Of a DNA stretch of 64,000 nt, positions 30,001 through 33,000 are shown one piece after another. Each line of letters starts with the position of its first letter. Positions within the stretch are counted from its first letter, which is position 1. The stretch lies in contig NW_018404995.1 of NCBI RefSeq assembly GCF_002113885.1, forward strand, positions 198,835 through 262,834, read 5' to 3'. Made by a program: the position numbers. The stretch is from Mizuhopecten yessoensis (Eukaryota).

Positions 30001-33000
30001 GACGACACATACCAACTTATACATATATCTGTCGTCACAAGTTCATTGTCTCAAAGTAGAGTCAAAAACACCTCATAGCTAACCAGTACACATACTCTGG
30101 TAAATACCAACTTATACATGTATCTGTCGTCACAAATTCATTGTCTCAAAGTACAGTCTAAAACACCTCATAGCTTACCACCACACACCAGAACCTCAAA
30201 TTATCCAAACCTTCAGTGTGTCCCCAATTTATTACTAATCTTTTAAATCATTGCCTTTTTACAATAAGCTTAAACAAGTACACACAAATATGTTTGATCG
30301 GCCATACAATACCACCTCTACTTGTTACTCAAATGTATACACAATGATCAACATCATCTACCTGTTTGTGGTAATCAGAAGCACCTGAATGTCACGTACA
30401 AATAAATACTTGTCCTCAAATTTGTTCAGATATGTGGCACTGTACTGTAAACTACAGTAGTATTCATATAGGACATATGTCTGTATAGGAAATCTAGTCA
30501 TGGTGATAGTAACGAGTCTCTATGTATAGTCTGTAAGTCAGAAGCAACAGTGGTAATGCTGGCAGTAACGAGCAGGTTCACTACTTGTGGCTTTCAAATC
30601 CCAGGCATTGATGTGTATGTTGGCTATATCTACCAGACTTTCCAGTTTGTATTTCTGAAGAGGTGTTATTTCCTTTCTTGACTTATTTCCTTTTAGTCTA
30701 TAGATTTGAGACAAGGAGTTGAAGACCCCAACAGTCATGAATACAGTGTTCATTTGTTCAGCTTTACAAAGCAGAGTCAGTCCACACACAACAGAAATAA
30801 ATCAATACAGTCGCATCACACTTGAGCACTAAGTTTCAACCGGGGTCAATCATACTCCAAAATTTGTTTGTGATAGAACAGCAGATATCTGTAGTAAGAA
30901 GAAATGAATGTTATAAACAGGAATATTATACAACCAGGATATTCGACATATTAAACAAGTATAAGTTCACCAGTCAAAATCAATTATTGGGCTATCAGGC
31001 CATTCAAATTATAACACAGCATCATAGCATCATTTGAGATGTTCTTTCAGGTGAAATCATGATCAAATAAGAATAGTTTAGTAAATTCACAGGTTGAAAA
31101 TGCTCAATTTTGGGGTTCAAAATCGAGAGTCTCCCTCCTTAATAGGTAGAGTTGGCAAGTATGCCATAGGCAACCTATTTATAAGCTACAGATATTATTC
31201 TTAATAAACCTGAAAATATAGAACAAAATGCTTAAGTCACTTAATCCTGATTTCAATCCACTATTACTAACATATCATGATCAACTACTGTATGCTGTTC
31301 CTTAACTTTGTCTATTGTAAAGATTCTATCATAAAACCTCACTTATATGTAGTAAATACTCACGTCGGATAAAGTAGGATAAACAGCAAACGTTTGTGGG
31401 CAACCACAAGATTAATGTCCACTGGGGTTATTGTTTAAGCTCAGTGACAATTTCACAAAATATCAAAGTATTATCAGTTTTTGAAATTCAATCAGAATGA
31501 AAGAACAATAGAAAGCCTGTACATTGTAAGTACTTACTGTCACTTGTCGTGTCATTGTTATCCTACTGTAATGTCTTACCCTTCACTGTTGAGAACATCA
31601 CGTGTCATTGTTATCATATTGAAATGTCTTACCCTCCACTGTTGAGAACATCACGTGTCATTGTTATCATACTGTAATGTCTTGCCCTTCACTGTTGAGA
31701 ACATCACGTGTCATTGTTATCATACTGAAATGTCTTACCCTTCACTGTTGAGAACATCACATGTCATTGTTATCATACTGAAATGTCTTACCCTTCATTG
31801 TTGAGAACATCACGTGTCATTGTTATCATACTGTAATGTCTTACCCGTAACTGTTGAGAACATCACGTGTCATTGTTATCATAATGTAATGTCTTACCCT
31901 TCACTGTTGAGAACATCATGTGTCATTGTTATCATACTGAAATGTCTTACCCTTCATTGTTGGGAACATCACGTGTCATTGTTATCATACTGTAATGTCT
32001 TAGCCTTCACTGATGAGAACATCACGTGTCAATGTTATCATACTGTAATGTCTTACCCTTCACTGTTGAGAACATCACGTGTCATTGGTATCATACTGTA
32101 ATGTCTTACCCTCCACTGTTGAGAACATCACATGTCATTGTTATCATACTGTAATGTCTTACCCTTTACTGTTGAGAACATCACGTGTCATTGTTATCAT
32201 ACTGTAATGTCTTACCCGTCACTGTTGAGAACATCACGTGTCATTGTTATCATAATGTAATGTCTTACCCTTCACTGTTGAGAACATCACCAGGCAGTGC
32301 CTTGTTGATTAGATGGTCATCACATTTGAACCACTGGTCCTTCAGTTGCCTGATGAAGCAGGTGTAGTGACCACTCTCAATTGTGCCCATGTGGTTCACC
32401 ACAGCAAACAAAGAATACCTGTTATGTACAATGTCTAAGATCAGAAACCTAGTCAACCAGTGTTAAAGCAGATACGCAAAAGCAATCATGAATGATAATA
32501 TTTAAAGAAGACTGAAATTTTATTCTATTTTGTTATTTCTATGCCCTTTTGGATTGTATTCTAACAAAGCACATTGTAAGAAATTATCTATTCAGTATAA
32601 AGCATAGTATGGTGTTTATGATAAAGACCCTGAAAGTAAGTCATTTCAGGATTAAATCTTGCTTGTCGATTTCATGAGGTATTGAAATGAGTTGGTATGG
32701 AGACAAATTCAACAAACTGCAAAACAATATCTCAGTAATCCTGATAGTGACTTGTCTCTGACAGTACGTTATAAACTCTTGACATGGAATATTTTGACAT
32801 CTGATTTCCTCAAGTCAAACACTGTTACAGTACCAGGAATCCACCTACTTGTTATCACATGAAAGCCCTCTGGAAGATTCCTGAATGACCTGATTATTGT
32901 AGCCATTAGTGTTGTTGCGGGAGGAGGACATGAAAGGGGTCATGTCCAGCTCCTCGGGGAATGACACGTAAGTCGAGATCTTCTTGTGGTACCCTGTTGA

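What the first reader, a model, noticed from the sequence alone, without database searches (positions are those of the whole stretch)
31549..32290. USP22's last intron starts with 13 extra copies of its donor, each leading to a truncated deubiquitinase
Seen: the unit is 22 nt of exon (DVLNSEG) plus GTAAGA and intron. Most copies keep GG|GTAAGA, while two are mutated (GC at ~31685, CT at ~32002). Reading past the first donor gives GGG TAA immediately and removes YLLFYHKQILEYD, which contains the conserved terminal strand of the USP fold. The first decoy puts the stop ~49 nt before the last junction, borderline for the 50-55-nt NMD rule, and later decoys exceed it. Inference: a possible dosage control on a SAGA subunit.
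Basis: partly seen in the sequence, partly recalled or inferred. Interest (0 to 1): 0.65.

Follow-up and report, generated by a model that had tools for sequence, protein, structure and literature searches.

The report
Minisatellite repeating a scallop USP22 donor
A 53-base tandem repeat that starts inside the second-to-last coding exon of a scallop USP22 gene copies that exon's splice donor 13 more times into the last intron, an arrangement already known from several human genes, where the extra donors are mostly ignored.

Summary
Window 31549-32290 (minus strand) holds 14 head-to-tail copies of a 53-nt unit: 22 nt of exon end, GTAAGA, and 25 nt of intron. Copy 1 is the real exon 12/intron 12 junction of an intact 13-exon USP22 orthologue. 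The best named match is a scallop, Ylistrum balloti, so I do not take the contig for human. Eleven of the 13 extra copies keep GG|GTAAGA. Using any of them would put GGG TAA in frame and drop the last 13 residues, 9 of which are invariant in 24 orthologues.

The interpretation as dosage control has no support here:
- The GT dinucleotides of the extra copies are not better kept than the rest of the unit (2 of 26 changed against 24 of 689 overall).
- 30.5% of the window is tandem repeat, so an array seeded across a splice junction is not unlikely by chance.
- The architecture, a minisatellite whose first monomer spans an exon-intron boundary, is described for human F7, IFI6 (6-16), CBS, LMNB2 and PDGF. 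There only the most upstream donor is used, or that donor plus the next two.

Most likely this is a near-neutral intronic minisatellite with largely silent pseudo-donors. It is a new member of a known kind. No RNA data or orthologous introns could be examined.

The parts
30846..40418 (-). Coding span of the USP22 orthologue: 13 coding exons and 12 GT-AG introns; 1593 coding nt = 530 codons plus stop
   Evidence: tblastn of the named orthologue P0002 gives 13 pieces covering residues 1-530 at 78-100% identity. Donors are; acceptors and exon lengths are. Pfam finds zf-UBP and UCH exon by exon.
32269..32418 (-). Coding exon 12 (150 nt). It encodes the His box and ends ...DVLNSEG. Its last 22 nt form the exon-derived part of repeat copy 1.
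   Evidence: Pfam UCH profile positions 198-246 of 254. PDB matches to Ubp8 of the SAGA deubiquitinase module.
32238..32290 (-). Repeat copy 1: the last 22 nt of exon 12, the authentic donor (GT at 32268-32267) and 25 nt of intron
31549..32237 (-). Repeat copies 2-14: 13 intronic units, each with a copy of the donor. Eleven are intact, copy 6 is GT>CT and copy 12 is GT>GC.
30889..32268 (-). Intron 12, the last coding intron (1380 nt). Its first 720 nt are the array.
31531..31541 (-). One more donor-like site just past the array (ACA|GTAAGT, GT at 31537-31536). It is not part of the repeat.
30846..30888 (-). Coding part of the last exon: YLLFYHKQILEYD plus the stop codon
   Evidence: 13 of 13 residues identical to P0002; 9 of 13 invariant in 24 orthologues

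Best explanation
This is an intronic minisatellite (53 bp x 14) that arose by tandem duplication of a segment straddling the exon 12/intron 12 junction of a scallop USP22 gene. It then grew and turned over by further duplication.

Copy 1 keeps the true junction. The 13 downstream copies are intronic 5' pseudo-sites.

The most likely working (inferred, not shown) is that the spliceosome uses the most upstream donor for nearly all transcripts. That gives the normal C-terminus, and the array is removed with the intron. At most a small fraction of transcripts would use the first one or two pseudo-sites, giving stop-containing by-products that are noise rather than regulation.

The array is a by-product of a repeat-rich genome and is tolerated because use of the first donor restores the normal message.
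For: Shown by the sequence and the calls:
- The anatomy of the unit and the array.
- Variants shared between copies (positions 15, 18, 19, 32, 35 and 52 of the unit) and a dip in mean distance at an offset of 7 units (2.71 against 3.18-3.67 for offsets 1-6). Both point to repeated duplication after mutation.
- 3 of the 25 differences hit the single CpG at the unit junction, a natural mutation pattern (read).
- No extra conservation of the pseudo-donors. GT sites changed at 2 of 26 against 24 of 689 overall (Fisher p 0.23). The hexamer changed at 2 of 78, and positions -3 to +6 at 4 of 117 (p 1.0 for each).
- The window is 30.5% tandem repeat in 28 arrays. If repeat seeds fell uniformly, about 0.65 would span one of the gene's 24 splice junctions and 0.33 one of its 12 donors.
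- A scallop genome paper reports tandem repeats as the largest repeat class, 21.7% of the assembly (PMC10225492, passage).
- The gene is intact: 530 codons with all introns GT-AG. The last exon is 13 of 13 identical to the Ylistrum balloti protein, whose NCBI model has the canonical C-terminus.

Precedent (PMC1557585; abstract, Introduction and Discussion read):
- Minisatellites whose first monomer spans an exon-intron boundary exist in F7, IFI6 (6-16), CBS, LMNB2 and PDGF.
- In F7, LMNB2 and PDGF only the authentic, most upstream donor is used.
Against: - No RNA evidence of any kind was available, so which donor is used is inferred.
- The pseudo-donors are intrinsically good. Nine have the same predicted U1 pairing as the real site (-8.9 kcal/mol, 6th best of the gene's 12 donors) and two are better (-10.3).
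- Work with model substrates reports that when two 5' splice sites both pair strongly with U1, the intron-proximal (downstream) one is used (PMC3413131, two passages). That would predict use of late copies.
- All the precedents are mammalian. Splice-site choice in molluscs may differ.
- The test for conservation of the donors has little power (26 sites).
Confidence: 0.72

Rival explanations
1. Regulated unproductive splicing. The extra donors are used at a tunable rate, giving stop-containing transcripts that are degraded or encode a truncated enzyme, and this sets USP22 dosage.
For: - 11 intact pseudo-donors pair with U1 as well as or better than the real donor.
- There is an immediate in-frame stop, 102-685 nt before the last junction for copies 3-14.
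- In 6-16 and CBS the first two pseudo-sites are used constitutively (PMC1557585, Introduction).
Against: - The donors show no excess conservation.
- Arrays of this kind are expected by chance in this genome.
- In F7 the pseudo-sites do not compete even when strengthened (PMC1557585, abstract and Discussion).
- The 50-55-nt rule is mammalian and untested in molluscs (PMC10761751, passages).
- No regulator or signal is evident.
Confidence: 0.08
2. Decoy or U1 sink. The reiterated donors bind U1 without being spliced, and so slow or block removal of the last intron (intron retention, nuclear retention), lowering output without any use of the extra junctions.
For: 12 GTRAG sites lie in 742 nt of array, against 3 in the remaining 660 nt of the intron. 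That decoy splice sites can cause intron retention is recalled from the literature and not checked here.
Against: There is no evidence in the sequence beyond the density of sites. No special RNA structure is predicted (z +0.85). The precedent arrays are reported as spliced normally (PMC1557585).
Confidence: 0.05
3. The downstream copies win, as in the intron-proximal rule for strong tandem donors. Most transcripts are then truncated, and this gene copy is on its way to losing function.
For: [quoted passage not shown] The donors here pair over 7 contiguous bases with the U1 5' end.
Against: - All 13 coding exons are open and 78-100% identical to the Ylistrum balloti protein.
- The last exon is 13 of 13 identical.
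- No second USP22 copy is visible in the window.
- All natural arrays of this kind cited in PMC1557585 use the upstream site.
Confidence: 0.04
4. Assembly artefact: the array, or its copy number, is wrongly assembled.
For: The window comes from an assembly with an 826-N gap (48580-49405), itself flanked by minisatellites. Tandem arrays are hard to assemble.
Against: The copies differ at 25 of 742 positions, with shared variants and CpG-type changes. That is not what a collapse or a stutter would give. Period and register are exact, with 0% indels.
Confidence: 0.05
5. Internal splicing within the array. 12 of 14 units carry CAG six nt before the donor, so a 6-nt in-frame micro-exon or stepwise removal of the array is conceivable.
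For: CAG|TGAAGG|GTAAGA occurs in 12 of 14 units. The pyrimidine content before the AG (0.53-0.59) is no lower than at the acceptors of exon 12 (0.47) and exon 4 (0.53), the two lowest of the 12.
Against: - The array has only 2 YTNAY branch-like motifs, against 26 in the other 660 nt of the intron.
- The pyrimidine content is at the bottom of the gene's range of 0.47-0.82.
- No orthologue in the 24-sequence alignment shows an extra EG at this point.
Confidence: 0.01

Closest known systems
Human F7 intron 7 37-bp VNTR (5' pseudo-site array), Borensztajn et al. 2006, PMC1557585
   Same: It is a minisatellite whose first monomer spans the exon-intron boundary, so the authentic donor is followed by identical donor copies in the intron. 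Those copies are functional in principle.
   Different: - Here the unit is 53 nt with 22 nt of exon; F7 has 37 bp with 4 bp of exon.
- Here there are 14 copies; F7 has 5-9.
- The donor here pairs more strongly with U1.
- The array sits in the last coding intron of a deubiquitinase gene of a scallop.
- Donor usage and copy-number polymorphism are untested here.
Human IFI6 (6-16) intron 2 and CBS intron 13 minisatellites (as described in the Introduction of PMC1557585)
   Same: The donors are reiterated by a boundary-spanning minisatellite (25 pseudo-sites in 6-16; 15-20 repeats in CBS).
   Different: [quoted passage not shown] Here usage is unknown, and any use gives an immediate stop.
Human LMNB2 and PDGF intronic minisatellites (as described in the Introduction of PMC1557585)
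   Same: They are boundary-spanning arrays of 10-18 monomers in which only the authentic donor is used. This is the behaviour I expect here.
   Different: Their monomers are longer (100 and 81 bp), and they are mammalian genes.
Alternative splicing coupled to nonsense-mediated decay (for example SRSF2 autoregulation, mentioned in PMC10761751)
   Same: If used, the pseudo-donors would give premature stops upstream of the last junction.
   Different: No evidence of use, conservation or a regulator. The element is a young repeat and not a conserved poison exon or site.
Model substrates with duplicated strong 5' splice sites (PMC3413131)
   Same: Several equally strong donors compete for one acceptor.
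   Different: Those substrates carry two sites in vitro and favour the intron-proximal one. Natural arrays favour the upstream one. This locus could show which rule holds for strong sites spaced 53 nt apart.

Membership tests
Minisatellite with first monomer spanning an exon-intron boundary (F7 IVS7-type 5' pseudo-site array) | Head-to-tail array of monomers of minisatellite size | tested here: met
   Period 53, 14.0 copies, 93% matches, no indels. There are 14 matches, all in the array, and none in 100 shuffles.
Minisatellite with first monomer spanning an exon-intron boundary (F7 IVS7-type 5' pseudo-site array) | The first monomer contains the end of the exon and the authentic donor | tested here: met
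   Copy 1 (32290-32238) holds the last 22 nt of exon 12 and the donor at 32269|32268.
Minisatellite with first monomer spanning an exon-intron boundary (F7 IVS7-type 5' pseudo-site array) | The donor sequence is reiterated in the following monomers | tested here: met
   11 of the 13 extra copies keep GG|GTAAGA; 2 are mutated at the GT.
Minisatellite with first monomer spanning an exon-intron boundary (F7 IVS7-type 5' pseudo-site array) | Pseudo-sites silent, or only the first few used; the most upstream donor preferred | not testable with these tools
   No transcript data. The only indirect evidence is the intact gene and the canonical C-terminus in the sister species' protein model.
Minisatellite with first monomer spanning an exon-intron boundary (F7 IVS7-type 5' pseudo-site array) | Copy number variable between alleles (VNTR) | not testable with these tools
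   Only a single assembly is at hand.
USP22 / Ubp8 (deubiquitinase of the SAGA module) | zf-UBP finger followed by a USP (UCH) catalytic domain | tested here: met
   Nine reading-frame pieces were scanned exon by exon. Two match zf-UBP, one of them below the cut-off. Four match UCH (53.3, 28.6, 47.9 and 22.5 bits; the last is just below the 23.9-bit cut-off). One matches only UCH_1, below the cut-off. Two match nothing.
USP22 / Ubp8 (deubiquitinase of the SAGA module) | Closest relatives are USP22 orthologues; closest solved structures are Ubp8 | tested here: met
   With exon 12 as query, 65 proteins reached E <= 1e-8 among 75 candidates. The named ones are USP22 or USP22/27/51 of molluscs and other invertebrates, the best being 98% identical (Ylistrum balloti). 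The PDB best hits are Ubp8 chains of SAGA.
USP22 / Ubp8 (deubiquitinase of the SAGA module) | Assembly into the SAGA deubiquitinase module and activity on H2B-ubiquitin | not testable with these tools
   Biochemical property; not addressed.
Splicing-coupled nonsense-mediated decay regulatory element | The alternative site is used in vivo and responds to blocking of decay | not testable with these tools
   No RNA data.
Splicing-coupled nonsense-mediated decay regulatory element | Premature stop more than 50-55 nt before the last exon junction (mammalian rule) | tested here: inconclusive
   The distance is 49 nt for the first extra donor and 102-685 nt for the others. Whether the rule holds in molluscs is unknown (PMC10761751, passages).
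Splicing-coupled nonsense-mediated decay regulatory element | The alternative sites are conserved beyond neutral expectation | tested here: not met
   Within the array, GT sites changed at 2 of 26 against 24 of 689 overall, Fisher p 0.23. This test has low power. Conservation between species is untestable here.

The most novel reading that the evidence does not exclude
The array is a selected device. A bank of strong, evenly spaced decoy donors in the last intron would divert a tunable share of USP22 pre-mRNA into stop-containing or unspliced transcripts. Output of the SAGA deubiquitinase would then depend on U1 or SR-protein availability, or on the inherited copy number of the repeat.
Probability: 0.07. 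Interest if true: 0.6.

Novelty: new member of a known kind. Interest (0 to 1): 0.25.

Why it matters
It matters modestly.
- The locus is a natural test of two published and opposite rules for choosing among identical 5' splice sites: most upstream wins (natural minisatellites) against intron-proximal wins (strong duplicated sites in vitro). Here the donors are strong, number 12 intact copies at 53-nt spacing, and sit in an invertebrate.
- It also shows a mutational hazard. An unstable repeat now includes the last seven codons and the donor of an exon that encodes invariant residues. Unequal exchange could therefore move pseudo-copy variants into the coding sequence (inference).
- For annotation, such arrays can mislead gene predictors.
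- It does not at present point to a new regulatory principle.

Tried and rejected
- Structure prediction. I folded the orthologue P0002 with a 24-sequence alignment, to see the last strand. Mean pLDDT was 44.1 and residues 514-530 were below 50, so nothing can be read from it.
- RNA fold of exon end plus three units. It folds no better than shuffles (z +0.85; 165 of 200 shuffles fold at least as well), so there is no structural reason for donor choice.
- Cluster members of P0002, to see other scallops' proteins or isoforms. The database was switched off, and I did not try again.
- Other copies of the unit in the window. There are none outside the array, so it is not part of a dispersed element here.
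- PMC10078293, on tandem repeats and splicing in humans. The passages held nothing on donor-bearing repeats.
- Branch-point scan, for internal splicing. There are 2 YTNAY motifs in the array against 26 in the rest of the intron, so that idea is weak.
- Literature. No paper in the library holds both 'USP22' and 'minisatellite'. None holds all of 'minisatellite', 'splice donor', 'intron' and 'mollusc'.
Transcript evidence was not available. Paper supplements were not needed and not opened.

Full report
**What is there**

On the minus strand, window 31549-32290 is a perfect-register tandem array. It has period 53, 14.0 copies, 93% matches, no indels and score 1311. A 36-nt piece of the unit matches 14 times with at most 3 mismatches, all inside the array. 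It matched in none of 100 shuffles, so the unit is not a dispersed element in this window.

Laid out in register, each unit has three parts: 22 nt equal or nearly equal to the end of a coding exon, a donor hexamer, and 25 nt of intron. Copy 1 (32290-32238) is joined to unique exon sequence on its 5' side. The array ends at 31549 and unique intron follows.

Twelve of the 14 copies read GG|GTAAGA. Copy 6 has C instead of G at 32003, and copy 12 has C instead of T at 31684.

**The gene**

I searched the window's coding sequence exon by exon and did not join the exons into a spliced model. No search, fold or alignment was made with a joined sequence. Where a full-length protein was needed I used a named database orthologue.

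- Pfam finds zf-UBP and UCH pieces in 7 of 9 reading-frame pieces. Exon 12 covers UCH profile positions 198-246 of 254.
- Exon 12 alone finds 25 PDB sequences. The best are Ubp8 chains of the SAGA deubiquitinase module.
- In the large protein collection, 65 proteins reach E <= 1e-8 among 75 candidates. The named ones are USP22 or USP22/27/51 of molluscs and other invertebrates. The best named hit, at 98% identity, is 'ubiquitin carboxyl-terminal hydrolase 22-like' of the scallop Ylistrum balloti (P0002).
- tblastn of P0002 against the window gives 13 pieces covering residues 1-530 at 78-100% identity.
- With the splice sites read off the sequence, the model has 13 coding exons and 12 GT-AG introns, and 1593 nt = 530 codons plus stop. 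That is the same length as P0002.

So this is an intact USP22 orthologue of a pectinid scallop close to, but not identical with, Y. balloti. I do not take the contig for human. The window's N run (48580-49405) was left as it is.

**Consequences if an extra donor were used**

- The real junction has its last exon base at 32269 and joins the acceptor at 30888. Intron 12 is 1380 nt, and its first 720 nt are the array.
- Reading past the first donor gives AGT GAA GGG TAA.
- With the first extra donor the stop lies 49 nt before the junction. With the others it lies 102 to 685 nt before it, and exon 12 would grow from 150 nt to between 203 and 839 nt.
- The lost peptide is YLLFYHKQILEYD. I aligned 24 orthologues's 65 hits. 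All 24 carry an NCBI species name and are 490 aa or longer. I left out every unnamed hit, the fragments, P0001 and some other named full-length records. In that alignment 9 of these 13 residues are invariant and 2 more are at least 90% conserved.
- In PDB alignments the orthologue aligns through residues 522-525 to the C-terminal end of Ubp8 and other USP chains.
- That this segment is the last strand of the USP fold is textbook knowledge that I recall. My own model was too poor to show it (mean pLDDT 44.1).

**Are the extra donors good, and are they protected?**

Predicted pairing with the U1 5' end (motif recalled) is -8.9 kcal/mol for the real site. That is 6th best of the gene's 12 donors, whose range is -4.5 to -12.2. 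The same value holds for 9 extra copies. Copies 2 and 9 reach -10.3, copy 6 reaches -5.3 and copy 12 reaches -4.2. Intrinsically, then, 11 pseudo-sites are as good as the real one.

They are not better preserved than the rest of the unit.

| Positions in the 13 extra copies | Changed from consensus | Fisher p |
|---|---|---|
| All positions | 24 of 689 | |
| GT sites | 2 of 26 | 0.23 |
| Donor hexamer | 2 of 78 | 1.0 |
| Positions -3 to +6 | 4 of 117 | 1.0 |
| Exon-derived part | 11 of 286 | |
| Intron-derived part | 13 of 403 | |

The test has little power, but it gives no hint of selection for or against the donors. No special RNA structure sets copy 1 apart (z +0.85).

**History of the array**

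The 25 differences from consensus (of 742 positions) include variants shared by two to four copies. The mean distance between copies dips at an offset of 7 units (2.71 against 3.18-3.67 at offsets 1-6). Copies 1 and 8, and copies 2 and 9, differ by only one base. Three of the differences hit the single CpG at the unit boundary (read).

This is the signature of mutation followed by re-duplication of blocks. It is a real, turning-over minisatellite and not an assembly stutter. The exact copy number may nevertheless be wrong or polymorphic.

**Context**

- The window is full of such arrays. TRF gives 49 rows that merge into 28 arrays covering 19,284 of 63,174 non-N bases (30.5%).
- If the seeds of these arrays fell uniformly, about 0.65 would span one of the 24 splice junctions of this gene alone, and 0.33 one of its 12 donors. 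For the 11 arrays with at least 5 copies, the figures are 0.24 and 0.12 (a rough estimate that includes the array itself).
- A scallop genome paper reports tandem repeats as the largest repeat class, 21.7% of the assembly (PMC10225492, passage).
- Donor-like sites are common anyway. Three more GTRAG sites lie in the 660 nt of intron 12 outside the array.

**What is known**

The architecture is described in print. Borensztajn et al. [quoted passage not shown] The authentic donor is therefore followed by identical '5' pseudo-sites'.

[quoted passage not shown] Only pseudo-sites made perfectly complementary to U1 drew some splicing.
- The Introduction lists further natural cases. IFI6 (6-16) has 25 pseudo-sites, and the two most proximal are used besides the authentic one. 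CBS intron 13 has 15-20 repeats, and two pseudo-sites are used. In LMNB2 and PDGF only the authentic donor is used.
[quoted passage not shown] The F7 paper itself notes the old contradiction.
- The 50-55-nt rule was derived in mammalian constructs. A review contrasts it with the EJC-independent model said to resemble NMD in yeast, Drosophila and C. elegans (PMC10761751, two passages). Its use for a mollusc is an extrapolation.
- I found no paper holding both 'USP22' and 'minisatellite', and none holding 'minisatellite', 'splice donor', 'intron' and 'mollusc' together.

**Verdict**

The best explanation (about 0.72) is a near-neutral intronic minisatellite seeded across the exon 12/intron 12 junction. 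It is tolerated because use of the first donor restores the normal message, and at most the first pseudo-sites are used at a low level. The steps 'first donor is used' and 'pseudo-sites are mostly silent' are inferred. They rest on the intact, conserved gene and on mammalian precedents, not on data from this animal.

The rivals are:
- a decoy or U1-sink effect on intron removal (0.05);
- dominance of downstream donors, with loss of function (0.04);
- an assembly artefact (0.05);
- internal micro-exon splicing (0.01). This last one is weakened by only 2 YTNAY motifs in the array against 26 in the rest of the intron.

It is a new member of a known kind. The interest lies mainly in its use as a natural test of how identical strong donors are ranked.

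**Left open**

Transcript evidence, copy-number variation and the orthologous introns could not be examined with the collections on hand.

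Noticed in passing
P0001 (Tegillarca granosa protein model, 728 aa), residues about 460-675: The blood clam's USP22 model carries about ten tandem copies of a 22-residue unit derived from the 5' part of the same exon. Seven are read in another frame (IFLVCCGQPQWYY...) and three in frame ([20 protein letters not shown]...). Its last exon is read out of frame. A second bivalve thus seems to have a tandem array at the other end of this exon, or else a faulty assembly or annotation. 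Only the protein was seen.
   Followed up: partly
window 1-64000: 30.5% of the non-N window is tandem repeat, in 28 arrays. Examples are 85 bp x 70 at 11659-17637, 34 bp x 50 at 28250-29920 (just downstream of the USP22 stop), 20/40 bp arrays at 44821-46580, and 38 bp x 80 at 60080-63140.
   Followed up: partly
window 42476-51256 (+) and 53844-54383 (-): Next to USP22 lie a multi-exon short-chain dehydrogenase gene (adh_short pieces in three exons) and a single-exon ORF of the Mito_morph_reg family (E 5e-53). From memory, human USP22 is neighboured by DHRS7B and TMEM11, so this may be conserved microsynteny. I did not test this.
   Followed up: no
window 47999-49502: The 826-N gap (48580-49405) lies between a 35-bp array and a 25/51-bp array, inside an intron of the dehydrogenase gene. 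The gap probably hides more repeat. It was left untouched.
   Followed up: no
window 3047-3868 (-) and 5787-7615 (-): There is an ORF with a folate-receptor family domain (E 1.6e-17). There are also remnants of a reverse transcriptase (RVT_1, E 3e-16), probably a decayed non-LTR retrotransposon.
   Followed up: partly
window 32419-32443 (-): Exon 12's own acceptor has the poorest pyrimidine tract of the gene's 12 acceptors (0.47 at positions -20 to -4, against 0.53-0.82 for the others). The exon that carries the repeated donor may therefore depend strongly on definition across the exon by its donor.
   Followed up: no
window 31549-32290 (-), unit boundaries: The only CpG of the unit sits at the junction between units. 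It is changed at 3 of the 13 internal junctions (copies 3/4, 7/8 and 10/11), a higher rate than elsewhere in the unit. This fits methylated-CpG decay in the germ line (read).
   Followed up: partly
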